A DNA stretch of 37,657 nucleotides from a virus (Duplodnaviria > Caudoviricetes), in IMG/VR virus record IMGVR_UViG_3300005077_001151, positions 1 through 37,657 of that record. One strand, given 5' to 3'. Position numbers and translations under genes: made by a program. This document shows, piece by piece, positions 15,144 to 31,400 of the stretch (positions within the stretch are counted from its first letter, which is position 1; each line of letters begins with the position of its first letter). A model generated the notes under the pieces. That model saw only the letters and a list, made by a program, of their open reading frames with translations. It was not told the origin of the DNA and searched no databases.

Positions 15144-15376
15144 TTCCTTCTAGCGAATTGTTCTCTCATAGCGACCAAATACTGGAGCATATCTGCAGCT
15201 TCCTCGATGGCCTCATCAATCCATTCAAAAGGATTTTTCTTCTGGTCCCAGCTTATGCCCTGACCATATGTAGCTCTTCCCTTCTTCCACCTATCTTTTA
15301 TTACCTTGATCACAGCTTTCTCGGTCTCTGTCTCTACAATATCGTATGGCTCAGTTTTGCGGGAAGATTTTTGCAT
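15137..15376 (-). CDS. Small all-alpha NTP pyrophosphohydrolase-like (MazG-like) protein
   Basis: R..KG..TYG...WIDEAIEEAADMLQYL acidic EExxD helix. Confidence 0.55.
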   Translation of the reverse strand: MQKSSRKTEPYDIVETETEKAVIKVIKDRWKKGRATYGQGISWDQKKNPFEWIDEAIEEAADMLQYLVAMREQFARRKW

Positions 15377-15380
15377 ATGA

Positions 15381-16100
15381 TTATCTCTTCACCCATCGAC
15401 TTATATCCGTATCAATGGCAACAGGAAAATCATACTTGCCGCAAGGAACAGGGCTGATGCACTTGCCTAATCTAAAGCACAGCGGCTTCATAGGCTCAGA
15501 GAGTATAGGACTTATTTTCTCTCTTATCTCGGCTCGCATAAGCCTTGCCACTTCTCTAAACTCACCTTGTGCGTTCTCGCAAAACCGCAGCTCCAGCATG
15601 TGATAAAGAGACCGAAGATTTATCGCCATCGTTATCGTGCTATGTATGTTCAAAGGGAGCAGTCCTCTTGCATCCTCTGTTTTACAGCCAAGTCTTATGA
15701 GCTCTCTATATTTGGACTGAAGATCTTCCATCGTCTCTCTGTATATTTTAAGAGCTGCTGCGTTGTTATTAAGCTCTTCAGAAATTGCAAACCTTTTCTC
15801 ACTTGCGAAGTCTCCTACATCAACTATTCTCAAGCTCTGTATGCTATAAGCTGCGGTCCTTGTCCTGGTTAGCTGCTGCTGAAAAGCTCGGCTTGCGCCT
15901 TCTATAAGCCACACAAGATTGACAAATTCAAAAACGGTCTGATGCGGTTGTTTGATAAGCATGCTAAAAAATGACTCTTTCTCATCGCTACTGAGATTTA
16001 TGTTTTCAATGCTATCAGGAACAACATGGTGCATGTTCATAAATGCCCAGTAAATAACTTCAAGCGGGTTTTTAGTAAAACTTATAAGCTTAACCTTCAT
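15381..16100 (-). CDS. thyX: Flavin-dependent thymidylate synthase (variant RTR motif)
   Basis: HQTVFE, SRAFQQQLTRTR-x7-S-LR, EDARGLLP, NLRSL, R.C..AQ.E.R; start MKVKL with GAGGAG RBS. Confidence 0.88.
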   Translation of the reverse strand: MKVKLISFTKNPLEVIYWAFMNMHHVVPDSIENINLSSDEKESFFSMLIKQPHQTVFEFVNLVWLIEGASRAFQQQLTRTRTAAYSIQSLRIVDVGDFASEKRFAISEELNNNAAALKIYRETMEDLQSKYRELIRLGCKTEDARGLLPLNIHSTITMAINLRSLYHMLELRFCENAQGEFREVARLMRAEIREKISPILSEPMKPLCFRLGKCISPVPCGKYDFPVAIDTDISRWVKR

Positions 16101-17355
16101 GAGCAGGTCTCCTCTCTTTTTCAAGCTTTTCACTTTTCTTAAAGAATGTGTCCACAAGCTCTCCAAATCCTATGTCTAAGTTAATGCCTATTGTCAAGAA
16201 ATATTTGAATATATCAATCCACTCCTCCTTTATCTTCTCTCTTGATATTGGCCTGTCGCTCTTATGTATCTTCCAGTTTATACAATCAAGCAGACTAAAT
16301 ATTTCATCTAGCATTAAAAGTGATAGCTTCTCGGTGTTCTTTTGCACAAGGCATAAGTCCTCGGAAAAATCAAAATAATGAGCAGAGTAAACTTCCTGCA
16401 TAGAGAATATATCATTCATAATAAATCTATCGTCCGATGATCTTCTTATTATGTCTTGTATTAAAATATCTGGATTCCACTCTGCATATCTCCCTAGCAT
16501 CATTATATTTTTAAATCTTTTGTTAATTCTCTTCTTTATTATCCTTGTTCTCTCCAAATATTTGCCTCCGCTGAATATGTCGCTCTTGCCTGTTATCTCG
16601 CAGAAGCATTTTTGGTCTCTCTTGATAACCCTTGAAAACTCGAAGCTTGGCTCAGGAAAATAAACGATCGCGTTCTCATAAGGTATTTTATTTATGCCGA
16701 AGTCGCTTTCTGTTCCCTCGAAGAACGTGCTGCCAAGATATTCTAACTGCTCGTCACCAGAAGCAATATCTGTGTCGGAATAAACCACCTTGCAGAAAAC
16801 ATCATAAGGTATCGTGCTTACGCAATGGTTAAAACTGATTTCTCTCCCAGAGGAAAGAACGACCTTATTATTTTCAGGGCAGATTTTAGAAACAAGCTCC
16901 TCTGAAAAAATTTGCGGCGCAATTATCTTATCAAGTGACAAAAAAAGGCTTTCAAGATCGACATCAAGCGCCTTCAAGCAGCTATTCTTTTCACAGCTCA
17001 AAAATAAACCTTCTCCATAAATCGATCTGCTAAATTTTAAAGCTCTGCCTGAGTACTGATCAACAAGCTTCTTATCTATTATTTTCTGCTTGTCGTCCGA
17101 CGACAGATATTCAGAGCTTATATAATTGTTATTGACTGATACAAGTATATCAAAAGTTTTGTGAGTATAGTCAACTCTGCCACCTAGCAGATTGATGTCA
17201 GAAAAAAATTTTTTTATCCTGTAATTGTCGTGGAAAAGAATAAAAGGCGACAGACAAGTGATAGTACTTAAATTGTCCTTGCCGACTATAAAGTAATCTC
17301 TATTATAAAGAGAAAATATTTTAGCGGATAATCCGTTTCCTAGAACAATGTTCAT
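16090..17355 (-). CDS. Fusion of a flavoprotein-like (Rossmann) oxidoreductase and a dimeric dUTPase-like all-alpha NTP pyrophosphatase
   Basis: N-terminal IVLGNGLSA, VSTIP, LGRYAEW; C-terminal DEIFSLL..INWK.H...IKEEWIDIFKYF...FFKKS. Confidence 0.65.
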   Translation of the reverse strand: MNIVLGNGLSAKIFSLYNRDYFIVGKDNLSTITCLSPFILFHDNYRIKKFFSDINLLGGRVDYTHKTFDILVSVNNNYISSEYLSSDDKQKIIDKKLVDQYSGRALKFSRSIYGEGLFLSCEKNSCLKALDVDLESLFLSLDKIIAPQIFSEELVSKICPENNKVVLSSGREISFNHCVSTIPYDVFCKVVYSDTDIASGDEQLEYLGSTFFEGTESDFGINKIPYENAIVYFPEPSFEFSRVIKRDQKCFCEITGKSDIFSGGKYLERTRIIKKRINKRFKNIMMLGRYAEWNPDILIQDIIRRSSDDRFIMNDIFSMQEVYSAHYFDFSEDLCLVQKNTEKLSLLMLDEIFSLLDCINWKIHKSDRPISREKIKEEWIDIFKYFLTIGINLDIGFGELVDTFFKKSEKLEKERRPAHEG

Positions 17356-17417
17356 GATCAAATGCTCCTCTGTCTGTCAGCCTTTAGAGATAAAAAGTTA
17401 ATGGTTAATTGTCTTGG

Positions 17418-18080
17418 TTAGGCTCTGCTATAGGCGCCATCCTCGCTCTTCTTGATCCAGCCATTTCTCATCCCTGTTGCTATAACCTTTGAAACACGGC
17501 TGGCAGGGTTCGTCAGTTTCTTGCAAGACGACGATATCTTCCTGATAAGCTCCTTTTCAGTTATGCCGTCGCTGTTGACGATTAATGATATTACAGCGTG
17601 TGTGCCGGCACTCTTTCTATATCCAAACTCATCAATCTTCTCTGACTGCTCCTTGGCAGCAGGTTTGGCAGCAGGTTTGGCAACGGCCTTGGCAACGGCC
17701 TTGGCAGCAGGTTTGGCAACGGCCTTGGCAGCAGGTTTGGCAACGGCCTTGGCAGCAGGCTTGGCAACGGCCTTGGCAACGGCCTTGGCAGCAGGTTTGG
17801 CAACGGCCTTGGCAACGGCCTTGGCAGCAGGTTTGGCAACGGCCTTGGCAGCAGGCTTCCAGTCGTCGATCTCCTCTTCCTCTACAGAGAAAGAATTGTA
17901 TACAACTGTAATTACTTCTGCCAAAGAGCCATCTTTCTCTTCAGGAAGTGATTCAACTGCAACCATGAATTGCTCCTTGGCTTCTTCTGCTGTGCAGCTG
18001 CTATCAATCACCAGCGGCTCCTCTCTGAGCATTTGGTCGTTGAATGCCGCAACGGCTTGATTAAATTTTTTTGTTTTCAT
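17418..18080 (-). CDS. Histone H1/AlgP-like Lys-Ala-Pro repeat protein
   Basis: Acidic N-terminus, 17 KPAA/KAVA tetrapeptides, basic C-terminal globular domain; AAAGGAG RBS. Confidence 0.75.
17653..17858. repeat. Coding tandem array of two 12-bp units (ttggcagcaggt / ttggcaacggcc), 17 units
   Basis: Read directly; encodes 8 KPAA and 9 KAVA. Confidence 0.95.
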
Positions 18081-18138
18081 ACAGGGTGCTCCTTTCTTGG
18101 TTTTTTGGATTAAACAAAACTTCCTGGCTTCCTGTTAT

Positions 18139-18156
18139 TATTATACCCCTGTTTCT
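18139..18156 (-). promoter_or_regulatory. Putative phage promoter motif AGAAACAGGGGTATAATA
   Basis: Intergenic, near-identical to 11378-11395, same orientation. Confidence 0.6.
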
Positions 18157-18170
18157 GATAATTGGAACCA

Positions 18171-19769
18171 TTATTTATTATTTTTTTTAGAATCAAAAAG
18201 CTCTACTCCTCTGTGCTCATAATCAGAATAAGGTTCGCTGTCAAGAATGACTTGGCCAAGTGCTACGTTTTGCAAAACCTGCACAGACTTCTGCTGATCA
18301 AAATCAGACTCTCTGCCTGCAACAACACCTATCCTAACCGTCTTCATTTTTTTCTCCATCCTCTGCTGATTAATAACCAGCATAAGGTCAACATGAGCGA
18401 GCTTTCTTATGTCCTCTGCTACATGTACCTGAGTGACAAACTGCTTATCGATACTGGATCTGTTGCTTTGACTAGCAGTAACAACAAGAGCGTGCCGTGT
18501 GCTGGCGATGTTCTTTAAAGCCTTCCACGTGTCGTCTATTCTCTCTCTGCCTACTTGCCTGGTGTCCTCTGGGGCAAGTATGTCTGCATAATCTAAAATT
18601 ATAACATCTGGAATAAAATTATCCACCTGCTCTAGTTGATCGATATCAGATTTTATTTCAGACAAGTTTGCAGAAAAAGAAGGATATGAGCCAAACCTAA
18701 AATTTTCACGAAAAGGCTTGTCCAAAGAGCTGAAAAGATTTATCGTGCTGCTCTTTTTCATCTCTGGCTTAGACACCTTTTCATACCAAATGGCTTGAAT
18801 AAAGTCCCTTTGCTTGTTGTTATTTCTACATTCTGTACAGACCTTGTGATTGTACGCATCACGGGCAAAGCCTTCTTCTGTAACTTGTCCTTCAATTTTG
18901 CCAAAGCCAGACCTTTGTTTCTTTTTGCACGAGTCGTCTTGGTTTCTCAAGCAGTCAAAAACCGGATATATAAAGTCACCCGCTGCATCAGCCCTTGCCG
19001 TTATGCGCTTATAGAAGCGCTTCTTCATTCCAAAGGCATCCATCTCCAACGAGATAAATATAACCTTAAATCCGTTGAGCAGCGCCTGAAAAGCAGTCTC
19101 CTGCAGCCAGAACGTCTTGCCTCTTTTTGGAGGGCCTAAAAATGAAACAAGCCATCCTCTTTCAAAGTCTCCTATCATGTCACCGAGTGCGCCAGGAAAT
19201 CTAAAAAGAACATTGGTCTTATCATTCCTGTCATCAAAGTATTTCTTTATCTCCTCTGTTGCAAATATGTTTACAAAGTTCGCAGAAGCTTTCTCTATCC
19301 GTCTAAAGTCAACAAGAGCGCTCTCTGCAGAGTCAAGATTGCCAGCATCAGAGCAAGCCACCAAAGTGTCGCCCAGAATTTTAAGCAGCCTAATCTTGAA
19401 ATAATCAATGGTCTTGTCCAGAATATAATCGATATTTACTCTGCTATCACAGAAGGTCTCACTGTCTATTTTCTTTATTATGTCCCATGTTATGTCCTGC
19501 TCCTCTTTGCTCATGCTACCAGCATTAGAGTGAAAGATCTCTTTTATAAACTTGCCTGGAGACTTTTTATATTTTCTATAATAGACCATACACCAAGCAG
19601 ATATTTTATTTATGTCTGTGTTTTCAAAAGCAGCTTGTCCTCTTTTTCTGTCAACCTGTTCAAGAATAGAGGCACACCTTGAGAGAAACGTGTCGTTGTG
19701 AACCAAGTAGCCAAGAACATTTACTTCAAACTCTGAATCAATCTTCCTTCTTCTGACCCCTGTCGTCAT
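18171..19769 (-). CDS. DnaB-like (SF4) replicative helicase
   Basis: GPPKRGKT, FISLEM, ILDYAD, TASQSNR, AEDIRK. Confidence 0.9.
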   Translation of the reverse strand: MTTGVRRRKIDSEFEVNVLGYLVHNDTFLSRCASILEQVDRKRGQAAFENTDINKISAWCMVYYRKYKKSPGKFIKEIFHSNAGSMSKEEQDITWDIIKKIDSETFCDSRVNIDYILDKTIDYFKIRLLKILGDTLVACSDAGNLDSAESALVDFRRIEKASANFVNIFATEEIKKYFDDRNDKTNVLFRFPGALGDMIGDFERGWLVSFLGPPKRGKTFWLQETAFQALLNGFKVIFISLEMDAFGMKKRFYKRITARADAAGDFIYPVFDCLRNQDDSCKKKQRSGFGKIEGQVTEEGFARDAYNHKVCTECRNNNKQRDFIQAIWYEKVSKPEMKKSSTINLFSSLDKPFRENFRFGSYPSFSANLSEIKSDIDQLEQVDNFIPDVIILDYADILAPEDTRQVGRERIDDTWKALKNIASTRHALVVTASQSNRSSIDKQFVTQVHVAEDIRKLAHVDLMLVINQQRMEKKMKTVRIGVVAGRESDFDQQKSVQVLQNVALGQVILDSEPYSDYEHRGVELFDSKKNNK

Positions 19770-19805
19770 AATTTTTCATCCTCTCTTTTGGACAAGTTAT
19801 GCACT

Positions 19806-21176
19806 TCACTCTTCGTCACTTATTGATATGGTTATATCTTCTGAAGAATTGTGCTCTACAGCATAACGCCTCAAAACAACGCTGTCTTCTGCTGTTTCTA
19901 TTATACTCTCCTTAACCATATAAGCAGGAAGCCTTCGGCTAAACGTTGTCACAGAGCAGAGCCAAGATGGCGTAACCTTATGCCATTCAGAGTGGACATC
20001 CTCTTCTATTGCATTAAAAAAATAATTGCACAAGGACCATAAAGCTCCTCTGCCATCAATGTCAAACATCACACGGTTAAATCTCTTAGAGTTTGCACAG
20101 GCAAAGTCTGTGAGCATTTTGGAAGCCTTCATAAAACATATCTCGTCTGACACAGAAAATCTCTCCGGTCTTACTCTGCCAAGAACCTTATCGACATACA
20201 TATTTTTAATCATGATAGTCAAGTGTTTGTTGCTGTCCTTTTCGGCATCTGCACATTCCTTGCTAAGCTTTGGCTCTTCTTTTAAGTATCTAATGAAAAG
20301 ACTTGAGCAGCCTTTAGGGTTGAAACTGTTTATAACAAACTCTGCTGGGGTCATTTTTGATAGCCGTTTTTTTACAATAGGATTTGTTGGTTCATATTTG
20401 TTGTCCAAAGCTGCAAAAGAAAAGTTACATATGGATCTCTTTATTTCTTCTATGGTGTACTTTCTGCCATCGAAAAGTTTCCCTTGCAGAAGATGTCCAA
20501 ATCTCAAATAAGAATATCTATAGGATTTTGTTTCAGTAGCTGGCAACCTCAGTCCGCAATCTCGCCAGTAAAGAATAAGCTCTTCTACGGCATTGTTTTT
20601 GGCTTGCGGTTTTAACCTTTTGTGATAATTATTATTGGGCTCTGGTAGTAAGCTGGTGGCTCGCGGACGCAGAGGCTGCGCAGCAGCGGCTGTCCTTCTT
20701 CTATGAAGAAATGTAACTCCGTTAGGAGTTATATTTTTCATAGAAGAAGAATATATATTCTTCTTTATTATATCCTTAAAGTTTTCTTTAAGGATAGGAA
20801 GTTGTCGATCCTTAAAGTTTTCTTTAAGGATAGGACGTTTGTTGTCTGTATTTTTAACTATTTTTTTCTGTATGTTTCTTAGTATAAAACTGTTCAGCTT
20901 TTCTCTATGCAGCGTTTTAATAAACCTTCTCCTTGTTCCGCTGTTTACAATATCTATAAGACCGCTCATGCTCAAAGACTTTATTGACTTGCTCACAGTT
21001 TGCACAGATACATTTAAAACATTAGCAAAATACTTGTCAGAAGCAAAGCAGTGCTTGTCGTCGGAGTCAAGAGAGATTATATATCCGTATAAGGAAATGT
21101 CTGTCTTGGAAAGCTCTTGATATTTAGAACACTCATATACTTCGGCAGGGATGACTATGAATTTTTGCTGTTTCAT
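19806..21176 (-). CDS. Replication initiator-like protein with N-terminal winged HTH
   Basis: LYGYIISL...CFASDKYFANVLNVSVQTVSKSIKSL...GLI; internal DNA repeats; upstream of the helicase gene. Confidence 0.7.
   Translation of the reverse strand: MKQQKFIVIPAEVYECSKYQELSKTDISLYGYIISLDSDDKHCFASDKYFANVLNVSVQTVSKSIKSLSMSGLIDIVNSGTRRRFIKTLHREKLNSFILRNIQKKIVKNTDNKRPILKENFKDRQLPILKENFKDIIKKNIYSSSMKNITPNGVTFLHRRRTAAAAQPLRPRATSLLPEPNNNYHKRLKPQAKNNAVEELILYWRDCGLRLPATETKSYRYSYLRFGHLLQGKLFDGRKYTIEEIKRSICNFSFAALDNKYEPTNPIVKKRLSKMTPAEFVINSFNPKGCSSLFIRYLKEEPKLSKECADAEKDSNKHLTIMIKNMYVDKVLGRVRPERFSVSDEICFMKASKMLTDFACANSKRFNRVMFDIDGRGALWSLCNYFFNAIEEDVHSEWHKVTPSWLCSVTTFSRRLPAYMVKESIIETAEDSVVLRRYAVEHNSSEDITISISDEE
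20771..20835. repeat. Two 28-bp direct repeats, each palindromic (ATCCTTAAAG-TTTT-CTTTAAGGAT); candidate origin iterons
   Basis: Copies at 20772-20799 and 20808-20835 are identical (36-bp period), with AT-rich flanks. Confidence 0.8.
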
Positions 21177-21210
21177 TTTTTCTTCCTTCTATTGGTTTGG
21201 CCAGAAGCTT

Positions 21211-21408
21211 TTATGAATTTTTTATAAGATCAGCTTCCTGAAAAATATGTCCTGATATTTCATTTATTTCACATAGAAGATCTTGAGCGCTTATTGGACA
21301 AAATCCAGGAGATCCATCTTCGCTGGCTATAAGTATGATAAGGTTTTTTGTTTTTGATAGCTTCTGCAAAGCGTCTATCAGAAGCTGGGTGTCTTTGAGC
21401 TCTATCAT
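21211..21408 (-). CDS. Hypothetical protein
   Basis: Short ORF filling the operon gap. Confidence 0.45.
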   Translation of the reverse strand: MIELKDTQLLIDALQKLSKTKNLIILIASEDGSPGFCPISAQDLLCEINEISGHIFQEADLIKNS

Positions 21409-21429
21409 TTCATCACCATAAATTAGAAA

Positions 21430-22341
21430 TTAGAATAACGTTTTTACTAGATGATTTGCGTCATCAGGCAGCATGTCTGATGGATCTCCGTCATCCAGAT
21501 AAAGCACCTCTACATATTTTACAAAGGCAGAAATCCTTGCAGCCAGAGCCTCCGCCTTTCTCGGAGCCGAAGGGTCCTTTTTGCGACTATCGAACATAAC
21601 AAAAGCTTTGTTAATATTCTTGTCTCTTATCTCTAATATTTGTTTGCTGGATACTTCTGTGCCCATGGTCGCTATGGAAAGCTCTCCAAGTCTCCATACG
21701 TCTGCTGGGCCTTCGACAATAATAACTCTTTCTTTTTTGATAGAGTCAATATTGTATAGGCATTGTTTGGCAGGACAGACAGCCTCGGCTGCAGGCTGAT
21801 TTTTGTATCTTGGCTCCTGTTTTTCTGTGACGTCTCTTGACGTGAATGTAACAAGGTCTCCGCATTTGTATATTGGAATTATTATCCTGTAACAATATTG
21901 CCCCGTAAAGTGCGAGAACCTTAAATCATACTTGCGTTCTATTTCCTCTGGATCGAAATTTCTTTTCAGAAGATAGTTTCTGTGCAGCTCTGGCATCACC
22001 CCTGAGCATTCTTTTGGAAGACATGTATGTGTTTTTCTGGAGAAGGCTTCTTGTGGCATGTCCTCTCTTGGAAAAGTCCCTCTGTCGTATCGCTGAATTA
22101 TGCGCTCACTTTCGCCGTAACTTATGCCCAGCAAAATAGTAAGCAGTTTTTTGATATGGCCTTTGGCTCCGCATATCCAGCAATGGTAGGCACCAGATGA
22201 TAAATTCACTCCCATATGCCAGCTGCTGTCAGAACAATATGGCATAGGGCATGTCGTCTCAATCCAGCCAGACGATACATTTTTACCTGATGTCTTGTAT
22301 GGGATACCATAATCCCTAAAAATCAGCTCTATATCGACCAT
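21430..22341 (-). CDS. DNA primase (zinc finger + Toprim)
   Basis: CPMPYC..H...CWIC, RIIIPI, VEGPAD, MFD, DPSD. Confidence 0.88.
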   Translation of the reverse strand: MVDIELIFRDYGIPYKTSGKNVSSGWIETTCPMPYCSDSSWHMGVNLSSGAYHCWICGAKGHIKKLLTILLGISYGESERIIQRYDRGTFPREDMPQEAFSRKTHTCLPKECSGVMPELHRNYLLKRNFDPEEIERKYDLRFSHFTGQYCYRIIIPIYKCGDLVTFTSRDVTEKQEPRYKNQPAAEAVCPAKQCLYNIDSIKKERVIIVEGPADVWRLGELSIATMGTEVSSKQILEIRDKNINKAFVMFDSRKKDPSAPRKAEALAARISAFVKYVEVLYLDDGDPSDMLPDDANHLVKTLF

Positions 22342-22398
22342 ATGCAATTTTATACAGGATTTAAAAGTTTTTAACTGAGTGGCTTAAATTGGCCAATT

Positions 22399-23730
22399 TT
22401 AAGACTTCTTTTGCGAGACAGTTGCGCTGTCTATAAAATCTCTTATTATCAGCTGTCCCTTATTTTGGGACTTTCTCAACCCTCTCCCTATGGACTGGAT
22501 GACAGCGGTCTCGCTCTTTCCTCCACCAACTATATACACGCAGTCAAGAGAAGGAATGTTAATGCCCTCTTTCCAGACAACAGAGGCTACCACGGCTTTT
22601 ACTTCTTTGCTTTCGATGGAATGTCTTACTTTGTTTCTATCCTCGGTGGGTGTATCGCCCCAGATAAAAGGCACAGGTCCGACAGAATTTGTCCTGTCTA
22701 TTTTTTGGATTGCTTCCTGGATACAAAACCCGTGCTCTATTTCAGATACATATATCAGACAAGACCGCCCAAGCTCTGCGTCTTTTATGCAATGGCGAGC
22801 AATTATGCCTGTCCTTACTGAGTTGTAAACTATTCCTGATTTCCTTATGCTGCTATACTTTGTTAAGCCTCTTAGGTTTTCGCTGAATGGAATTTTTGCA
22901 AGATAGACCTTTGGCTGAGCGATAAGATCCGATGTCCTTCCTTCTTGGATGCTGATCTCGTCTATTATAGGCCCAAGCAGACCTTCACTTACCAGCGCTT
23001 CTGCTCCTTGCTTTGGTGGAGTTGCGGTTAAACCTATTCTGACGGGAGCCGTGGATCGCAATAGTGTTCTATGATAGTCGCCATCATATACGCAAGCGTG
23101 ATGAGACTCATCAATGATTATTATATCATATGAGCAAAGGGACTCTGTCGGCATAGCTCTGACACTCTGAATGGTTCCAGCAGTTATGATATTCTTGTGC
23201 TTACTGGCAATGTCCTTTTGCCCGCTAAAATAGCAGCTTGTTCGGAAGCCAAACTTGCAGAATTCTTCAACTGCCTGCTTGCACAGATCTATGGTATTTG
23301 TAAGGAAAAGAACTCTGCAGTTCTGCGCTTTCTGGTAGCAGCTAATAATGCCTGCCGCTATGACTGTTTTGCCTGATCCTGGCGGAGCCTTTAGCACTCC
23401 TCTGCTACACAGCAGAGCATTCTTTATCATACGCAACTGGTCTTCACGGAATTCAATATTGTCTATTGCTGGTGGAAAATCATATGTGGGAAATGAATAA
23501 GGAAAAAACGGAGAGGCAACCTCGGGATTGTCATTTATCAGGCGTGGTAATAGACCGGCAAGACAATAACCTTGCCGGTCTATTACTGACTGGATCTTTT
23601 CAACTCTTGTCATGCCGAAACGATCTCTGCGGTATATAACTTTTTTGAAGGTAGGTACTTGCAGGCAGGCACCCACCTTTATCAGGGTGGGGTCTATAAT
23701 CTTAATCTGCTTATTGTCCTCTATGCGCAA
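22399..23730 (-). CDS. Superfamily 2 helicase (UvsW-like)
   Basis: PPGSGKT, IDESHH, GLTATP, EGINIP, QSIGRGLR; TTG start with GGAGG. Confidence 0.9.
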   Translation of the reverse strand: MRIEDNKQIKIIDPTLIKVGACLQVPTFKKVIYRRDRFGMTRVEKIQSVIDRQGYCLAGLLPRLINDNPEVASPFFPYSFPTYDFPPAIDNIEFREDQLRMIKNALLCSRGVLKAPPGSGKTVIAAGIISCYQKAQNCRVLFLTNTIDLCKQAVEEFCKFGFRTSCYFSGQKDIASKHKNIITAGTIQSVRAMPTESLCSYDIIIIDESHHACVYDGDYHRTLLRSTAPVRIGLTATPPKQGAEALVSEGLLGPIIDEISIQEGRTSDLIAQPKVYLAKIPFSENLRGLTKYSSIRKSGIVYNSVRTGIIARHCIKDAELGRSCLIYVSEIEHGFCIQEAIQKIDRTNSVGPVPFIWGDTPTEDRNKVRHSIESKEVKAVVASVVWKEGINIPSLDCVYIVGGGKSETAVIQSIGRGLRKSQNKGQLIIRDFIDSATVSQKKS

Positions 23731-24065
23731 AGGACCTCCCTGGTAAAATTTTTCATCTCATTGACCAACGCATTAAACGACCTTCTATTTAAATTATACT
23801 TCTTTTTTATAAAGCAGAGCACTTTTTTTCTTGATATTTTTTCCTCACAAAGAACAAAGAGTTTTTCATCGTCACCTAGAATAGATGTTACAAGATCTCT
23901 TGCTGTTGCAGACAAAGCTTTTATCTCCTGTTCTATTAGCAATCTGTGGAATGCTTCGTTGTAAGAAACAGGAAAGTCTTCTTGTGCATCGTCCTCTGAT
24001 GGTAGAGGAAGTGTGCCTTGAAAATAGGTATATGCAGCAATCTGCCAAGCAAAACTTTGTTTCAT
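23721..24065 (-). CDS. Hypothetical protein
   Basis: Intact ORF with RBS, overlapping the helicase start. Confidence 0.55.
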   Translation of the reverse strand: MKQSFAWQIAAYTYFQGTLPLPSEDDAQEDFPVSYNEAFHRLLIEQEIKALSATARDLVTSILGDDEKLFVLCEEKISRKKVLCFIKKKYNLNRRSFNALVNEMKNFTREVLCA

Positions 24066-24083
24066 GCTCGCTCTCTCCCTTCT

Positions 24084-24269
24084 CTATATATGCTTCACAG
24101 AAAAACACCGCAGCAGTTTAAAAAAGTTTCGTTTGCTGCGGTGTTTGTAAAATTTTTTCAGCTTACAGTAGCTGTATTCTGTTACATTGTAGTATGTGTA
24201 GCGCTTTTGTCCAAGACATATTATAAGGCTTCCGTCCCTTTGCCAGCTAACAATTTTGATGTCATCCAT
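24084..24269 (-). CDS. KTSC-like small protein
   Basis: L.I......YTYYNV....Y..L.....S...FF pattern. Confidence 0.5.
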   Translation of the reverse strand: MDDIKIVSWQRDGSLIICLGQKRYTYYNVTEYSYCKLKKFYKHRSKRNFFKLLRCFSVKHI

Positions 24270-24279
24270 ATAAACACTA

Positions 24280-24471
24280 CTACTTATCAAGCAAGTCAAG
24301 CGCTCGCCTCAGCAAGCAGCTTACCATATTGCTGATGCTGCGATGCTCGTTTTCACTTGCCTTCTGTATCATTTCCCATAAAGACGCATCGATACTCACG
24401 CCGAGAAATCGCTTCTCAGTTTTGGGACTATTTCTTTTGCCTTCTGATGATTGTCCTTTTTTCACAGTCAC
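24280..24471 (-). CDS. Ribbon-helix-helix (Arc/CopG-like) regulator
   Basis: FLGVSIDASLWEMIQKASENEHRSISNMVSCLL. Confidence 0.75.
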   Translation of the reverse strand: MTVKKGQSSEGKRNSPKTEKRFLGVSIDASLWEMIQKASENEHRSISNMVSCLLRRALDLLDK

Positions 24472-24676
24472 GGTTCTCTCCTTTGTCTTTGTATATTTTT
24501 CTCCACAGGTTCAAAAAATCGTCACTTGTTATTGAGTTAGTCTCGTGGCCTTTTACGTCTACCAGGCAGACCACGGTTGAATCAATATAGTATCCGACTA
24601 TATGTGATCCATACTTGCTCTGAAAATATCTGAGCATAGGCGCATAATCAGGATCTTCTCGCAAATCACACAGCAT
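24428..24676 (-). CDS. Hypothetical protein
   Basis: ORF with GGAGG RBS, overlapping neighbours. Confidence 0.5.
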   Translation of the reverse strand: MLCDLREDPDYAPMLRYFQSKYGSHIVGYYIDSTVVCLVDVKGHETNSITSDDFLNLWRKIYKDKGENRDCEKRTIIRRQKK

Positions 24677-24932
24677 CTGTCGCCCTCCGTCGTTTCAGCG
24701 GACAGGCAAGGCGACGACGATGAATGGTCTTGGCCTTGCTGTCTCTGTGCTGTTTATAATAACCGCTGTCTTCGTATGCCTTCGCTACAGCGGGACATTT
24801 TGCAGCGTCCCATTTTTTGCAGCGCTCTACGCATATTTGCAGCGGCTTGAAGTGCAGACTGTCTTGGCAATACTGAAACAGAGATGAGCCATACTCATAC
24901 TCATACTCATACTCATCTTTGTGCCTTTTCAT
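24666..24932 (-). CDS. Hypothetical Cys-containing basic protein
   Basis: AAAGGAG RBS; (CATACT)4 microsatellite encodes EYEYEYEY. Confidence 0.55.
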   Translation of the reverse strand: MKRHKDEYEYEYEYGSSLFQYCQDSLHFKPLQICVERCKKWDAAKCPAVAKAYEDSGYYKQHRDSKAKTIHRRRLACPLKRRRATDAV

Positions 24933-24950
24933 CCTGCTTGTCGCTCCTTT

Positions 24951-25187
24951 CTAAAGCTCTGACCGATGGAGCTTATTATTGTTTAGAGTGCAAAAATCTT
25001 CCAGCAGATCTTCACGCTCTGTTGTCAGTTCAAGCACGTCGTCCCTTGCCAGCACTGCGTCCAGGCATGCAGAATGGTGTGCTATGCCCTCCATAAAATC
25101 GGCTGTTTCGCCCGCCCAGATAGGACGTCCGCACTCAGGACAGACTGAGAATTGTGTTGCTGTTTTTCTAGTAATTTTGTCAGTCAT
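24951..25187 (-). CDS. Small zinc-binding protein
   Basis: CPECGRPI..GE...HHSAC; GGAGG RBS. Confidence 0.65.
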   Translation of the reverse strand: MTDKITRKTATQFSVCPECGRPIWAGETADFMEGIAHHSACLDAVLARDDVLELTTEREDLLEDFCTLNNNKLHRSEL

Positions 25188-25199
25188 GTTGCCTCCCTC

Positions 25200-25274
25200 T
25201 TACCCTATAACAAGCATTAACATTATTATAATTGCGATAATAAGAAAACATAAAAATTCTTCGACTGTCAACAT
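25200..25274 (-). CDS. Small hydrophobic peptide (24 aa)
   Basis: MLTVEEFLCFLIIAIIIMLMLVIG with AAGGAG RBS. Confidence 0.4.
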   Translation of the reverse strand: MLTVEEFLCFLIIAIIIMLMLVIG

Positions 25275-25295
25275 GTTAATTCTCCTTCCTTCGGT

Positions 25296-25481
25296 TTATG
25301 AATTAATTTCGTTTCGCAAGCACTCCAGCGCCTGCAGCAGCTGCTGCTCTGTTTTCGGAAGATGCTTGCCTTCTCTGATGACGGCATATACCGCTGCCAG
25401 TAAGCCAACAACTCCAACAGACGAAGCCACCTTGCTTACTTGATCAACGGCCATTTTGCTTATGGACTCTTCAAACGTCAT
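25296..25481 (-). CDS. Hypothetical protein
   Basis: Start reassigned to MTFEESI (TAAGGAG RBS). Confidence 0.55.
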   Translation of the reverse strand: MTFEESISKMAVDQVSKVASSVGVVGLLAAVYAVIREGKHLPKTEQQLLQALECLRNEINS

Positions 25482-25513
25482 AGTTTTCTCCTTATGATTT
25501 TTGGTTTTTAATA

Positions 25514-25576
25514 AACCGCCGGCACACTGGGAGCCCGACCAGTACGACCACTGAGACATGGTTCATGCCGGCGGTT
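25514..25576 (-). other. Intergenic three-way-junction RNA structure (candidate)
   Basis: 11-bp closing stem AACCGCCGGCA/TGCCGGCGGTT enclosing two short hairpins. Confidence 0.5.
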
Positions 25577-25590
25577 ATTTATAATTTTTT

Positions 25591-25635
25591 TAGCAAGCTG
25601 TGCTGGTAGCTTCCTACTGCCAGCACAGCTTGCTA
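25591..25635. repeat. Hairpin-forming repeat, copy 1 (inverted relative to 29150-29192)
   Basis: TAGCAAGCTGTGCTGG...CCAGCACAGCTTGCTA 16-bp arms. Confidence 0.85.
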
Positions 25636-25644
25636 GTTATTGCG

Positions 25645-26877
25645 TTATACCATATCAACTCTTGTACCAAATGGCGGATCGTAAAGCCGGCCTGTTGAAC
25701 TCCAGTTGAGCCAAACCACGGGACACAGTGGATCAAGATCTGGTGACGGAAACGATCCAGCCATATCCGTAAAGTAAATTACCGCTGCCGGATCAATCTG
25801 CTCGGAAGCAATATATTGAAACACTGGCTCAAAGTCTGTGCCGCCTCCACCAACTGGGCGAACGTCAGTGGTCATGTCCAGCTCTTCAACATTTTGAATT
25901 TTTTCGTCACAGTGAATCAGAAGAACTGGTTTGGCAAACTGATACTGCGCAACGAACTCTCGAAGCTTGCCGATGAATGTGCCGAGAAGTTGCCGATTGA
26001 TTGATCCGCTAGTATCAAGAGCAACCACTAGCGGCTTATCGATTTCTTGGCTATACAGACCAGGCATTCCAGCGCACCGCCGATTTTGCCGGCTGTAGCT
26101 GTAGTCGCTGCGCGCAGCCTGCTGAATAGCAGCTGCCAAAATTTCTTCCCACGGAGGGTTTGCCTCCAGCATTTCCTCTGCCATTTGACGGACCTGCCCG
26201 CCCGATTTGTCGCCAATGCCTTGGGCCATGCTCACTGCCTGAGCGAGCATCTGCTTTATTCTGTTTTCTTCCTCGGTGATGTCGCCCTCACTCATCGGCG
26301 AGCCATCTTCATTTGTTGGCTCCTCAACTTGCCCCCAAGTTTGAGGCGTGCGGCCAGGAATGCCGCTGCCTTCGCTATCATCGCTGCTATCATCGCTGCC
26401 TTCGCTATCATCGCTGCTATCATCGCTGCCTTCGCTATCATCGCTGCTATCATCGCTGTCTTTCTGCTTCTCAGCTTCACGTTCTTGCACCAAAGCTACA
26501 TAAATCTCTTCCGCGCTCATGCCGCGAAACTGTTCATCCAGCAGTCCTGGAGGCAGCTCATATCGCTCATTGACCAGCATTTGATTAATGCGATAATCGC
26601 ATGCCATATTCCACAGCACAGGATCTCTTCCACAGATGCGAATATGATCCATAAGGTCAGTGTGCATGCCTTCGTGGAGCAGGACTCCTTCAACTTCATC
26701 AACCGAAAGTTTATCAACAAACTCGCGATTCCATTTAATTACACGACCATTCGTTACCATGGTTGGCTGATTGTTGTCTTCTTTGAGCTCCATACCATAC
26801 ACCGTTGCGGCATGAAACAAAGCATCTTGGCCAAGCTTAATCTTGGCGCATATTAATTTTTCTTCGGCGGTTTTCAT
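25645..26877 (-). CDS. Putative metallopeptidase (DUF2201-like, HExxH) + vWA domain protein
   Basis: LHEGMH, WNMACD..IN, acidic linker, MIDAS ALDTSGS, GGGGTDF, YFTD. Confidence 0.88.
   Translation of the reverse strand: MKTAEEKLICAKIKLGQDALFHAATVYGMELKEDNNQPTMVTNGRVIKWNREFVDKLSVDEVEGVLLHEGMHTDLMDHIRICGRDPVLWNMACDYRINQMLVNERYELPPGLLDEQFRGMSAEEIYVALVQEREAEKQKDSDDSSDDSEGSDDSSDDSEGSDDSSDDSEGSGIPGRTPQTWGQVEEPTNEDGSPMSEGDITEEENRIKQMLAQAVSMAQGIGDKSGGQVRQMAEEMLEANPPWEEILAAAIQQAARSDYSYSRQNRRCAGMPGLYSQEIDKPLVVALDTSGSINRQLLGTFIGKLREFVAQYQFAKPVLLIHCDEKIQNVEELDMTTDVRPVGGGGTDFEPVFQYIASEQIDPAAVIYFTDMAGSFPSPDLDPLCPVVWLNWSSTGRLYDPPFGTRVDMV
26364..26458. repeat. 3 x 30-bp coding tandem repeat (SDDSSDDSEG linker)
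   Basis: cgctgccttcgctatcatcgctgctatcat repeated exactly three times. Confidence 0.9.
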
Positions 26878-26961
26878 GATTGTCTCCTTGTAGGTTAGGT
26901 TAGTATTCCTGTTTAGCTCTCAAGAAGTCGCTCAAAATTAATTGAGCGACATGCTTCAAAA

Positions 26962-27951
26962 CTAAATCAGATATTTTGCATTGCTAGCTGCCCACTTAAC
27001 AAAGGCAGCAGTTTCTTCAAACCATGAATGATTGAGACGCGCTTTCGCAACGAATAAGTATGCAAACTCAGCGCCAAGCCGCTCCATGACCGAGAAGCAC
27101 TGGGAAACATTCTTCGCAGTCGCCTTTCCAACCAGCGCTGCGACCATAGCGAATTTTACTGCACCGTTTTGCGGTACAGCAAACGTACTAGCATTCACCA
27201 GCACATCATCAAGGTCCGGCAGCTCATTCATGACCTTCACGAAAGCCCAGAAGTCCAGAGCAGCGGCTTCACCAACTGCGCCCTTAACCACTTCAAACAT
27301 AGTGGAGCAAGAAACCTTTCCGTCCCACCCTTTAATTACGTCACTCACGAATTCCCAGCTGCGCGGAGTTGGGAATGATTTCAGGTCCTTCTTGGGATCA
27401 AACTTGAAAACCATCTCTGGGCGATACGCGATGTAAGCAATCACCCGCATTTCGTAGTCCATCTTAATGGCATGCTCAATCCACTCGGCAGCGTCCGCTT
27501 CCAAGTCCAAGTGGATAAACCTATTAGCCAAAGGCGCAGGCATCGGAGTTGTGAAGGCGCGGTCGCTTTCGCGATTTCCAGCCGCAATAATTAAGCAGTC
27601 CTCAGGCAGTTCGTATTCACCAAGACGCCGATCAAGCACCAGCTGGTAAAGAGCAGCCTTTACCATCGGCGCCGCATTTGGCAGCTCATCCAGAAACATA
27701 ACATATCCAGGACCATCAGGCAGAAAAGAAGGTGGGCACCATTGCGTCCTGCCGTTCACTACCTGCATCAATCCGCGCAGATCAACAGGATCAAGCTGAG
27801 TGGCACGGATATCAATCAGCTTACGACCATTCGCATCAGCGAACTGGCGGGTAATGCTGCTCTTGCCGATCCCAGGCGCACCCCACAAAAACACGGGGCG
27901 TTTTGTTTTTGCGATAATATTCATTGCGGTTAACAGTGCTTTTGCTTTCAT
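26962..27951 (-). CDS. MoxR-like AAA+ ATPase
   Basis: WGAPGIGKS, DLRG, FLDE, AAGN, LANRF, TPRSWE. Confidence 0.9.
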   Translation of the reverse strand: MKAKALLTAMNIIAKTKRPVFLWGAPGIGKSSITRQFADANGRKLIDIRATQLDPVDLRGLMQVVNGRTQWCPPSFLPDGPGYVMFLDELPNAAPMVKAALYQLVLDRRLGEYELPEDCLIIAAGNRESDRAFTTPMPAPLANRFIHLDLEADAAEWIEHAIKMDYEMRVIAYIAYRPEMVFKFDPKKDLKSFPTPRSWEFVSDVIKGWDGKVSCSTMFEVVKGAVGEAAALDFWAFVKVMNELPDLDDVLVNASTFAVPQNGAVKFAMVAALVGKATAKNVSQCFSVMERLGAEFAYLFVAKARLNHSWFEETAAFVKWAASNAKYLI

Positions 27952-28039
27952 GCGGATCTCCCTTCTTGTTGTAGTTTATTATAAGTTTTGTTTGGTGTTC
28001 ATCGTGGGGCACGCACAGGTCGTGCCCCAGAGATCAACA

Positions 28040-28855
28040 TCAAACTTTGTACGATTCCACTTTTTTCAGCAGAGTTGTAAGCTTTTTAGCTTTGTCTTCA
28101 TCAGTATCGTTCTGGTTGCCGACGATACTGGTTGCAGTGTTGACTACTGCATCAAGCGTCTTGTCCTCGGTGACGTCGTTCAATTCATTTGCAGACGAAA
28201 GCACCTTCTCTATCCTCTCGATGGCTTTCTCTGTGACACCGATCTTGTCATTTGTCAGTCGACCAATAAATGTCGCGAGCCCCTCGATCAGCCTCAATCT
28301 TAGGTCTTCACGCATTTCTTTTAACTGTTCGTCCAGCAGAGAGGAAAATTCAGACCTCAGCGTCTCATTATCAACACCATCGATCCTGAAATCATTTTCA
28401 GGAATGGGCATAACACTTACTTTTACTGAGAACGTTGTCTTGATCTCTTCAGCTGCAGGATACTCGCTCTCATCAAACATATTGCCCAGTCTATTGCTTG
28501 CCTCTTTCTTGATATCGTCATACTTGCTGCAGAAGAGTCTAACTGCTTCTTCATGCTTCGAGACCAGAGCTGTCATCCGCTCTGCAAACCTAATATATTT
28601 TTTGGATGGAAGCACTCTAATGCCTTGGTCCATCCATGGCAAGGTCTCTGCGTGGAGGAAAATCTTTATCGAATTCCTCGCAGACAGTAATTCCTTCAGG
28701 TGCCTTCTCTCTACCAGCTTCTTAACATAGACACCAGCTCCATTGGTACCATGGCCTTCGTCGACCTGCTTTGTTACATTTTTATCCACTATTGCGCCTG
28801 ACCAACCGCCAGTCGAAACTCTGATTAAAACCGCTCTATCTCTTAGTGTTACCAT
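28040..28855 (-). CDS. DUF3150-like phage protein
   Basis: KKL...TLPW...G.RVLP...LGNMFDESEYP pattern, recalled as the usual partner upstream of phage AAA/vWA pairs. Confidence 0.6.
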   Translation of the reverse strand: MVTLRDRAVLIRVSTGGWSGAIVDKNVTKQVDEGHGTNGAGVYVKKLVERRHLKELLSARNSIKIFLHAETLPWMDQGIRVLPSKKYIRFAERMTALVSKHEEAVRLFCSKYDDIKKEASNRLGNMFDESEYPAAEEIKTTFSVKVSVMPIPENDFRIDGVDNETLRSEFSSLLDEQLKEMREDLRLRLIEGLATFIGRLTNDKIGVTEKAIERIEKVLSSANELNDVTEDKTLDAVVNTATSIVGNQNDTDEDKAKKLTTLLKKVESYKV

Positions 28856-28901
28856 ATCGATCTCCTTTTTATAATTTGTTATTTGTTGTTTAAGTTTAAT
28901 C

Positions 28902-29129
28902 TTAGTCGTTGTACAGAACTAATTCAAAGCCATTATCAGTCTTGTATTGCCACCCAAGGGTTTTTTCTTGGTCGGGAGTCTTCAATTTTTGATATATCTT
29001 GAAGACATATCTAGGCAGTACGGTTATTTGCATTGGTGTTTTCCCAACAGGGATGCCCAGAGATGATGCCTCGGCGTAGAATGTGTTTTTGTTGAGGTCA
29101 AATTCTAACAGATTGATGTTAATTACCAT
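28902..29129 (-). CDS. Small hypothetical early protein
   Basis: Start reassigned to MVININ (AAGGAGG RBS); FYAEASSL...GWQY...LYND. Confidence 0.6.
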   Translation of the reverse strand: MVININLLEFDLNKNTFYAEASSLGIPVGKTPMQITVLPRYVFKIYQKLKTPDQEKTLGWQYKTDNGFELVLYND

Positions 29130-29149
29130 ATAAAGCCTCCTTGTCATTT

Positions 29150-29192
29150 TAGCAAGCTGCGCTGGCAGTAGGAAGCTACCAGCACAGCTTGC
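29150..29192. repeat. Hairpin-forming repeat, copy 2
   Basis: 42/43 match to the reverse complement of the 25591-25635 element, including its asymmetric centre. Confidence 0.85.
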
Positions 29193-29208
29193 CTTTGTTT
29201 GTGGTTTA

Positions 29209-29406
29209 TTATTTGGAGAGATTATACTTAACGAACCGCATATGTTCAACGTGCATACGCTGAATATGATCAACTCCCTCTGCTTTGCTAGCAAATAGTC
29301 CTGTGTTGCGATTTTGCGCAACACTGAACCCTTTCCAATTCCCTACCTTAGTTTTCCAAATCTGACCAATGATCTCTTTGCCAATTTTCACTTCATATTT
29401 TTTCAT
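29209..29406 (-). CDS. Small basic hypothetical protein, first ORF after the hammerhead
   Basis: AAAGGGAG RBS; 65 aa. Confidence 0.6.
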   Translation of the reverse strand: MKKYEVKIGKEIIGQIWKTKVGNWKGFSVAQNRNTGLFASKAEGVDHIQRMHVEHMRFVKYNLSK

Positions 29407-29436
29407 CTCTGTCTCCCTTTGCTTTGCCTTGATTAT

Positions 29437-29507
29437 GGACTCATCAGTAGCAGCACCATACTGCCAGACAGCCGATTAACATATAATCAGCTGTTTCGTC
29501 CTATGGC
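29437..29507 (-). ncRNA. Hammerhead ribozyme, type II
   Basis: Minus strand: GGAC-GAAA-CAGCUGAUUA(UAUGU)UAAUCGGCUG-UC^-UGGCAGU(AUGGU)GCUGCUA-CUGAUGA-GUCC. All core nucleotides and three stems are present. Confidence 0.92.
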
Positions 29508-29897
29508 GGTTATCATGCCTACGCTTGCGCTCCCGCCGTGGCACCCAAAATTTTGGTCAGATTGTTTGGGACTTGACCCTAGGATTGCATCTCTGCGATT
29601 CCCCTGAGATCTGCCCACCTTTTAAACTTTGATTGTCCACCGTCGCCTAACTTGGTTCGTGCGCTGCCGCACGCCCTACCCTTTCGGGTACCTATTGCTA
29701 GGTGGTCGCCGTTTGTTCGCTGGGTCTCGGGTTTTTTACCTTCTAAAAAGCCCTGAAAAAATTGCCTTTCGGCTATGAACAACAGATCACTACTTGCAGA
29801 TCCGTGACAAAGCGCCTTGCAGTGGGACGAAACTGACGTCCCCAGCTGCCCTTGCCACTTTCCTGCTTTCGTTTTCTGTTGTTGTTTTTGTGTTCAT
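29508..29897 (-). ncRNA. Candidate structured non-coding leader RNA
   Basis: Several stems capped by GNRA loops (GCC-GAAA-GGC, ACCUA-GCAA-UAGGU, UACCC-GAAA-GGGUA) plus long-range pairings; no convincing ORF. Confidence 0.55.
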
Positions 29898-29903
29898 GAT
29901 CAT

Positions 29904-29960
29904 ATTATCGCTCTTTTTAAAAATAACTAAAGGATTTTTTAATTTTTTTTTAAAAAAAAA
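29904..29960 (-). promoter_or_regulatory. Putative early promoter with A-tract UP-like element
   Basis: GATAAT (-10-like, 29904-29909) with A/T tracts upstream, at the head of the early gene array; -35 is weak. Confidence 0.35.
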
Positions 29961-30168
29961 TATAAGTGCTTGTTTTTACTTAACAAAAAAAAGATAAAAA
30001 ATCGGAAGAATTTTGTAGAGAGAGACAGAATTATTCCAAATTTTTGGTAGCTATGAAAAAAGGAAGGTATTACAGTAGGTTATATTACATCGTTTGCCGA
30101 AAAGTAAAAGAGATGCGATAAGTAGTTGATATAACTTACGAAACAAGAAACATAAAAATACGGAAATA

Positions 30169-31016: not shown

Positions 31017-31400
31017 TCATCGGTAAAATAAATATATTGTACCAGACTTTGTGTCGCCAGCATTCGTGACCTGAACGGTAATGAGGCCACTAACATGTGG
31101 TACGTCAAACCCAGAAGTACCTTTGTTGATTTCTTCCTTTGCCGACGCAGAGCAATCAACACCTATGCCATACAGTATGTCCCAACCACTCTCGTCATAA
31201 ATAACAATGTCGTATAGATCTGTCGGCGCAGCGGTTGCGCTTGGCACAATAATAACGCGCCCAAGAATACCATCAATATTGCCGTACACAGTTGCGCTGC
31301 CGGAGCCATTAGAAGTCCACTGAATTGTTTCAACTTTAGTTGCGAGAGCTGTGCCACTCAACAAAGCTGCTACAACGAAAAACAAAATAAGTTTTTTCAT
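31017..31400 (-). CDS. Secreted beta-rich protein, paralogue 2
   Basis: Signal peptide ending ALA; APTDLYDI...TNAG..KSGTIY shared with the upstream gene. Confidence 0.7.
   Translation of the reverse strand: MKKLILFFVVAALLSGTALATKVETIQWTSNGSGSATVYGNIDGILGRVIIVPSATAAPTDLYDIVIYDESGWDILYGIGVDCSASAKEEINKGTSGFDVPHVSGLITVQVTNAGDTKSGTIYLFYR

What the first reader, a model, noticed from the sequence alone, without database searches (positions are those of the whole stretch)
29467..29897. Candidate novel ~430-nt structured RNA released by the hammerhead
Seen on the minus strand between a putative promoter and the ribozyme: a 5' domain closed by AACAACAGA/UCUGUUGUU containing GUGGCAAGG/CUUUGUCAC and GGGACG/CGUCCC stems. 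GNRA hairpins follow at 29764-29773, 29690-29703 and 29677-29690, then CGUGCG-GCAG-CGCACG (29658-29673) and a GGCGG/CCGCC stem with GC-GCAA-GC. The GNRA loops read correctly only on the transcribed strand. Inference: promoter > structured ncRNA > self-cleavage > early mRNA, yielding a discrete first-made phage RNA (antiterminator, protein decoy or anti-defence RNA). This is my best candidate for an undescribed system.
Basis: partly seen in the sequence, partly recalled or inferred. Interest (0 to 1): 0.8.

Follow-up and report, generated by a model that had tools for sequence, protein, structure and literature searches.

The report
Hammerhead-ended orphan phage leader RNA
Behind its predicted early promoter this uncultured phage has a 431-base stretch with no called gene that is predicted to fold into an intricate RNA ending in a self-cutting hammerhead motif, so it likely yields a free RNA, possibly a protein decoy, early in infection; it matches no catalogued family, but no relative was found to confirm the fold.

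Summary
The minus strand folds better than shuffles (z -4.5). The signal lies in the 5' rod (z -4.9) and the middle hairpins (z -2.9); 29490-29655 has none (z -0.2, -0.8). GNRA hairpins number 4 against 0.66 expected (p 0.004), with 0 on the plus strand. The 3' end is a type II hammerhead with an intact core (Rfam RF02276, 23 bits, below the cut-off of 37), predicted to cut after 29467. No other Rfam family matches within the RNA, and the 67-aa and 35-aa ORFs have no homologues. No relative of the RNA turned up in IMG/VR, JGI, GTDB, phage or plasmid collections, so covariation is untested; no sequencing run was listed. The promoter is non-consensus. Two related phages have unrelated 460-490-base gene-free leaders at the same position; three do not. 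Earlier notes of this scan report the same layout on other phages. Verdict: a probable real orphan structured RNA, likely released by the ribozyme; decoy role is inferred only. Interest 0.42.

The parts
29898..29960 (-). Predicted early promoter: A-tract (UP-like) about 29956-29935, weak -35-like hexamer 29931-29926, -10-like GATAAT 29909-29904; start inferred at about 29897
   Evidence: Sequence. The same A-tract layout stands before consensus promoters in relatives G005 and G029. Not listed by the consensus scan. The gap 29898-30168 is 25% G+C against 50% in the RNA.
29778..29883 (-). Domain 1: 106-base interrupted rod with a GAAA/AAGUA internal loop (loop-E-like, label from my own knowledge), a 3x3 AAA/GGA purine loop and an apical GGGACG/CGUCCC hairpin
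   Evidence: z -4.9 minus, -3.6 plus; pair probabilities mostly 0.8 or more; 3 G-U pairs
29756..29773 (-). Three-pair GAAA hairpin followed by six U (pause- or weak-terminator-like)
   Evidence: Too short a stem for the terminator scan.
29729..29753 (-). A/U-rich stem-loop
   Evidence: Pair probability 0.7-0.8
29658..29703 (-). Three abutting tetraloop hairpins (GCAA, GAAA, GCAG loops)
   Evidence: z -2.9 minus against -0.8 plus for 29655-29775
29538..29657 (-). Poorly determined segment with competing helices (including an 11-pair alternative 29692-29682/29550-29540)
   Evidence: z -0.2; helix list; the alternative fold costs 5.5 kcal/mol
29505..29537 (-). GGCGG/CCGCC stem with a two-pair GCAA hairpin and a 13-base open loop
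   Evidence: Pair probability about 0.8; segment z -0.8
29434..29501 (-). Type II hammerhead ribozyme: stem II GGAC/GUCC, GAAA, 11-pair stem III, GUC triplet (predicted cut between 29467 and 29466), stem I, CUGAUGA core; loop I can pair with the 3' tail
   Evidence: RF02276 23.1 bits, below the gathering score 37; E 0.047, 4.1e-4. Present in the MFE fold, ensemble share about 0.39 with its stems enforced.
29209..29420 (-). Ribosome site and first downstream gene (65 aa, no family), on the 3' cleavage product
   Evidence: Called gene, singleton cluster; no PHROG or Pfam hit; Atlas leads under 0.9 only
25645..29129 (-). Downstream early module: 75-aa ORF, DUF3150, AAA_5 ATPase, DUF2201 metallopeptidase-VWA, with its own 10/12 promoter-like site at 29249-29221
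   Evidence: Pfam, PHROGs, promoter scan

Best explanation
The stretch is likely a phage non-coding RNA gene whose 3' end would be made by the hammerhead: host RNA polymerase would start near 29897, the first 431 bases are predicted to fold as they emerge, and self-cleavage after 29467 would free them as a stable RNA that probably works in trans as a binding surface or decoy for a host protein early in infection. Shown here: the helices, the strand bias, the intact hammerhead core, the lack of a called or conserved ORF, and the position between the lysis genes and the early/replication genes. From established chemistry (own knowledge): the cut leaves a 2',3'-cyclic phosphate on the RNA and a 5'-OH on the mRNA. 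Inferred: transcription, the start site, cleavage in vivo, stability, the decoy role and its partner.
For: Folding z -4.46, -3.6 without the ribozyme. GNRA excess on the minus strand only. A 50% G+C island next to a 25% G+C promoter gap. Purine-rich internal loops in domain 1 of kinds used for tertiary and protein contacts (sequence; labels from own knowledge). The hammerhead forms in the MFE fold. Cleavage does not open the downstream ribosome site (mean unpaired 0.79 uncut, 0.64 cut). No 12-base complement exists elsewhere on the same strand of the window, and only 6 weak minus-strand terminator-like sites lie in 15000-29400; these weaken the translational, antisense and antitermination readings. 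Two relatives have gene-free leaders of similar length at the same place, one closed by a terminator (G022, z -2.70; G027, 492 bases).
Against: No homologue, so no covariation. The 3' third has no folding signal. The promoter is non-consensus, and two upstream 9/12 sites would move the 5' end. The hammerhead is under the Rfam cut-off and its ensemble share is only about 0.39. The G027 leader is not significantly structured (z -1.68, 6 of 100 shuffles as good), the three leaders do not align, and G005, G011 and G029 start a gene 17-74 bases after a consensus promoter. A hammerhead before a DUF3150/AAA/VWA module needs no upstream RNA to explain it. No positive evidence points to a protein partner; the decoy role is chosen by elimination.
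Confidence: 0.4

Rival explanations
1. The hammerhead only trims the early mRNA (or insulates it from read-through of the lysis operon), and the upstream piece is a by-product: a mosaic of local RNA modules or relics, not one functional RNA.
For: Uneven folding signal. Ribozymes next to phage early genes are in print (PMC3088659). Relative G027 has 12 twister-P5 ribozymes over cut-off in a 13-kb stretch, most just before a ribosome site. No homologue anywhere. Twister-like words occur in order at 29596-29566 without the P1 stem.
Against: 395 bases without a gene and with a strand-specific GNRA excess are more than trimming needs. The twister-like words score with none of 3 twister models nor with a profile of 13 G027 copies, and the same pattern also occurs once inside a gene.
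Confidence: 0.27
2. The RNA acts in cis on the polymerase that made it, like HK022 put: domain 1 or the hairpin cluster binds RNA polymerase and makes it resistant to pausing and termination through the long early/replication operon.
For: It is the first thing transcribed in a co-oriented run of about 29 kb. A hairpin plus U6 follows domain 1. put activity persists without tethering (PMC9378689 Introduction), so cleavage would not abolish it.
Against: put RNAs are about 70 bases with two stems, against 431 here. Few and weak terminators lie downstream, and a better promoter-like site lies at 29249-29221. No sequence or model match.
Confidence: 0.18
3. The leader is a switch: domain 1 is opened by a ligand or by a ribosome on the 35-codon ORF that starts at the predicted first base, and this controls either the U6 pause site or the hammerhead through pairing of 29833-29825 with the ribozyme core 29501-29493.
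For: A perfect 9-base complement to the core, with flanking wobble helices. Best 33-base duplex -35.1 against -29.2 +/- 2.7 kcal/mol in shuffles, p 0.02; a run of 9 or more in 31 of 500 shuffles. The ORF 29897-29790 spans most of domain 1.
Against: Found after looking. The alternative fold costs about 19 kcal/mol. No such anti-core word lies upstream of the hammerhead in 135 loci (3 hits, all downstream). The ORF is neither called nor conserved.
Confidence: 0.1
4. The stretch codes for a small protein (67-aa ORF 29782-29579, or a 104-codon open frame 29893-29579), and the helices are incidental.
For: A stop-free frame of 104 codons exists.
Against: TTG start with no ribosome site. Not called. 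No candidate among 5.8 billion proteins. No significant tblastn hit in phages (best E 2). 0 of 596 metagenome candidates confirmed. No Pfam or PHROG hit.
Confidence: 0.05

Closest known systems
Type II hammerhead ribozymes of bacteria and phages (Rfam RF02276; Perreault et al. 2011, PMC3088659: passages and part 1 of the Discussion read)
   Same: Open stem II, closed stems I and III, intact core, loop I able to pair with the 3' tail; placed just before an early gene, as for the HF1/HF2 halovirus ribozyme.
   Different: Long stem III and a score below the gathering cut-off. Here it also closes a 395-base structured leader, which the parts I read do not describe.
GOLLD and ROOL RNAs (PMC5737381 and bioRxiv 10.1101/2024.12.08.627333: passages read)
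   Same: Large, multi-helix, phage-borne RNA of unknown function.
   Different: Shorter (431 against about 581 and often over 800 bases). No tRNA in the window. No Rfam match. Ends in a ribozyme. No covariation support.
HK022 putL/putR RNAs (PMC9378689: abstract and Introduction read)
   Same: Structured RNA directly behind an early phage promoter, ahead of a long operon.
   Different: Six times longer, many more helices, followed by a ribozyme, few terminators downstream, activity untested.
Group II intron domains 1-3 (resemblance recalled from memory, used as a lead only)
   Same: Loop-E-like internal loop, GNRA hairpins, similar size.
   Different: No match to Rfam group-II-D1D4-1, -2 or -3 or to any group II model in the all-family scan; no reverse transcriptase among the annotated ORFs of the window.

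Membership tests
Type II hammerhead (RF02276) | Conserved core CUGAnGA, GAAA and NUH triplet at a three-way junction | tested here: met
Type II hammerhead (RF02276) | Stems I and III closed, stem II open | tested here: met
Type II hammerhead (RF02276) | Loop I / 3' tail pseudoknot | tested here: inconclusive
   3-4 possible pairs, partly competing with stem II; a 7-pair alternative with the 5' flank exists
Type II hammerhead (RF02276) | Rfam gathering score 37 bits | tested here: not met
   23.1 bits, E 4.1e-4 for the contig; long stem III. So: predicted to work like one; not a curated-threshold member.
Type II hammerhead (RF02276) | Self-cleavage | not testable with these tools
   Needs in-vitro transcription
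GOLLD / ROOL / OLE / raiA | Match to the covariance model | tested here: not met
   No hit at gathering score or at E 10 over 4227 families
GOLLD / ROOL | Often near tRNA genes in phages | tested here: inconclusive
   0 tRNAs in the window, but the contig is about 40% complete
GOLLD / ROOL | Structure backed by covariation | not testable with these tools
   No homologue found
Group II intron (incl. permuted form) | D1-D4 model match and catalytic domain 5 | tested here: not met
   (3 of the D1D4 families scored singly, the rest only in the all-family scan)
Twister ribozyme | Model match (P1, P3, P5 types) with intact P1 and flanking core | tested here: not met
HK022 put | About 70 bases, two stem-loops behind an early promoter | tested here: not met
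   431 bases, at least eight helices; definition
HK022 put | Suppresses termination by binding RNA polymerase | not testable with these tools
   Needs a transcription assay

The most novel reading that the evidence does not exclude
A new class of ornate phage RNA gene that uses a hammerhead instead of a terminator to make its 3' end. It would be the first product of infection, fold through GNRA and purine-loop contacts into a compact or multimeric particle, and neutralise a host defence or RNA-handling protein, with its apical loop able to pair with and tune its own ribozyme. It would be one of several unrelated, interchangeable RNAs filling the same early-leader slot in this phage clade.
Probability: 0.2. 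Interest if true: 0.8.

Novelty: new member of a known kind. Interest (0 to 1): 0.42.

Why it matters
Large structured phage RNAs (GOLLD, ROOL) still have no known function. An RNA with both ends fixed by the sequence, a promoter and a self-cleavage site, is easy to make and probe. If it acts in trans it would add an RNA-only route of host takeover or counter-defence. As a singleton without covariation or expression data it is a weaker starting point than the conserved examples of the same layout noted elsewhere in this scan.

Tried and rejected
Homologue searches for the RNA, all empty.
- blastn in phages and plasmids: only chance pieces of 24-34 bases.
- Domain-1 patterns: strict, IMG/VR 0; relaxed, 96 stretches, best non-self 10 of 14 pairs against 14; intermediate, metagenomes 0 and GTDB 0.
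- Three-hairpin pattern: 45 stretches, best 6 pairs against 16.
- Apical hairpin in GTDB: 6 matches, no more than chance by my arithmetic (about 17), none followed by a hammerhead core.
- Back-translated 104-codon frame in metagenomes: 0 of 596 confirmed.
- nhmmer and a single-sequence covariance model over 135 type II hammerhead loci, from a scan that covered 24 of 64 parts of IMG/VR; nhmmer over 80 of 531 AAA loci and over 65 SSB-clade loci plus 40 fetched stretches; BLAST over 30 of 31 records; the model over the 40 stretches and over 50 + 50 whole records. Searches had no positive control inside them; the model finds its source. A one-sequence model and fixed-geometry patterns miss distant kin.

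Close phage relatives: none found (best AAA 43-45%; best SSB 52%).

Sequencing runs: none was listed, no RNA holder listed; not evidence either way.

Rejected: group II intron and twister readings; second hammerheads suggested by repeats D9 and D15, which lie inside ORFs and lack a core; pairing of the first six bases with 29781-29776 (probability 0); a codon-usage score, which did not separate called genes from the small ORFs.

Literature: searches gave no paper on this RNA. Five short motif strings were absent from 6 supplementary files of PMC10690425; files 1, 2 and 4 could not be searched and may bear on novelty. bioRxiv 10.64898/2026.09.22.753630 has no mention of hammerheads (passages); bioRxiv supplements are closed.

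Full report
Context. The window is a whole virus contig of 37,657 bases, estimated 40% complete. The genes that could be annotated all lie on the minus strand: tail-like and lysis genes at the high end, then the finding, then small ORFs, DUF3150, an AAA_5 ATPase, a DUF2201 metallopeptidase-VWA, helicases, primase, a Pol III alpha-type polymerase, SSB, a RecA-like protein and SbcCD. The host is unknown; a lipoprotein-like ORF next to the endolysin suggests a Gram-negative host (inference from the sequence). No close relative exists in the collections: DUF3150 finds only itself, the best AAA hits are 43-45%, the best SSB hits 52%, and cultured phages are under 40%.

Observation. The stretch 29425-29900 folds at z -4.46 on the minus strand and -3.39 on the plus strand, and at -3.6 without the ribozyme. 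The signal is uneven: domain 1 -4.9, middle -2.9, 29545-29655 -0.2, 29490-29545 -0.8. 2 of 171 background tiles score lower than domain 1. GNRA hairpins of 3 or more pairs number 4 against 0.66 expected (p 0.004) and 0 on the plus strand; 8 of 745 overlapping 431-base windows on the minus strand reach 4 or more. One of the four (29593) has low pair probability. Domain 1 holds a GAAA/AAGUA loop and an AAA/GGA loop, which I recognise from own knowledge as loop-E-like and tandem sheared-purine motifs; no call tested these labels.

The ribozyme. 29501-29437 is a type II hammerhead with an intact core and a GUC triplet; the predicted cut falls between 29467 and 29466. It scores 23.1 bits on RF02276, under the cut-off of 37 (E 0.047, 4.1e-4). 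It forms in the minimum-energy fold of the full transcript, with an ensemble share of about 0.39. It is the only hammerhead found in the early region. Cleavage does not open the next ribosome site in the model (0.79 unpaired uncut, 0.64 cut).

The 5' end. It has a good -10-like hexamer, a poor -35, and an A-tract laid out as in consensus promoters of relatives G005 and G029. Two 9/12 sites further upstream could make the RNA longer. A 10/12 site at 29249-29221 could drive the DUF3150 module independently.

Coding. Neither the 67-aa nor the 35-aa ORF is in the protein collection, while the 65-aa and 75-aa neighbours are. The 67-aa ORF has no candidate among 5.8 billion proteins and no significant tblastn hit; the 35-aa ORF has none. 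A 104-codon open frame exists but gave 0 of 596 confirmed candidates in metagenomes. A codon-usage score was uninformative.

Known families. No Rfam hit at gathering score in the window. At E 10 around the finding there are 3 hits: the hammerhead and two chance hits downstream of the RNA. Group II D1D4-1, -2, -3 and twister P1, P3, P5 models give nothing on the contig. No tRNA or tmRNA.

Homologues. None was found by blastn, patterns, nhmmer or a single-sequence covariance model, in phages, plasmids, IMG/VR, JGI metagenomes or GTDB (counts under Tried and rejected). Covariation is therefore untested, not refuted.

The clade. An SSB alignment gave 65 loci. The fetched records are syntenic for the replication genes but have no detectable DUF3150, AAA or VWA gene and no type II hammerhead (4 pattern matches against 13 for the reversed control in 30 records). 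G027 has a consensus promoter, then 492 bases to the first ORF (z -1.68, not significant), then 12 twister-P5 ribozymes over cut-off in the 13-kb stretch scanned. G022 has a gene-free stretch of about 460 bases between a promoter-like site and a terminator (z -2.70). Neither leader matches Rfam, and the three leaders share only 25 invariant columns of 537. G005, G011 and G029 start a gene 17-74 bases after a consensus promoter. So a long early leader and ribozyme punctuation recur in the clade, but not this RNA.

Mechanism. I commit to a ribozyme-released trans-acting RNA, most likely a protein decoy (0.4), by elimination. There is no antisense target of 12 bases or more on the same strand of the window (only 40% of the genome is held), no effect on the ribosome site, and few strong terminators. 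A by-product or mosaic reading follows at 0.27. A put-like role gets 0.18; put does not need tethering (PMC9378689), so cleavage does not exclude it. A switch gets 0.10: the apical loop of domain 1 is complementary to the ribozyme core over 9 bases (p 0.02-0.06 after looking), but that fold costs 19 kcal/mol and the word is not enriched near 135 other hammerheads. Coding gets 0.05.

Comparison and novelty. Hammerheads beside phage early genes are described (PMC3088659, passages and part 1 of the Discussion). Large phage RNAs of unknown function are described (PMC5737381 and bioRxiv 10.1101/2024.12.08.627333, passages). Seven literature searches and a partial supplement search (3 files not searchable) found no description of this RNA. 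Earlier notes of this scan hold no look-alike sequence but report the same layout in other phages; these are unchecked leads, not support. Verdict: a probable real, orphan structured RNA with a predicted self-cleaved 3' end; new member of a known kind; interest 0.42, and 0.8 if the novel case (probability 0.2) holds.

Noticed in passing
window 29150-29192 and 25593-25635: A 43-base palindromic element in two copies, inverted relative to each other (98% complementary), brackets the 75-aa ORF, DUF3150, AAA and DUF2201 genes. It could be a processing stem, a mobility end or an invertible boundary. No look-alike in earlier notes.
   Followed up: partly
window about 30121-30140 and 29964-29983: Two TAAGT-N10-ACTTA inverted repeats in the A/T-rich gap upstream of the RNA, operator-like. 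Similar spaced repeats occur in G005, G026 and G027 but not at promoters.
   Followed up: partly
L316:3673-13005 (G027): A relative's early region carries 12 twister-P5 ribozymes over the Rfam cut-off plus a weaker 13th, most just before a ribosome site; one more matches by pattern in L312.
   Followed up: partly
L316:2618-3105 (G027): 492-base gene-free leader behind a consensus early promoter, ending in a long perfect hairpin; no Rfam family; z -1.68.
   Followed up: partly
L321:2200-2740, minus strand (G022): About 460-base gene-free structured stretch with its own promoter-like site and terminator, holding two copies of a 12-base word; no Rfam family; z -2.70. A candidate RNA gene in its own right.
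   Followed up: partly
window 29596-29566, minus strand: Three twister-P5 consensus words in the right order but without the P1 stem; possibly a ribozyme relic, possibly chance (one similar match inside a gene at 31147).
   Followed up: yes
window about 27950-28035, 26880-26960, 25506-25584, 23540-23590, 20690-20770: Long, near-perfect hairpins at or near early gene boundaries and inside two replication genes; possible RNase III or stabilising elements.
   Followed up: no
window 11427-15143: Pol III alpha-type polymerase fused to a C-terminal uracil-DNA glycosylase domain.
   Followed up: no
L474, L477, L478: The 19-base apical hairpin occurs letter for letter in three bacterial genomes, in two of them inside longer palindromes; the count is within chance.
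   Followed up: partly
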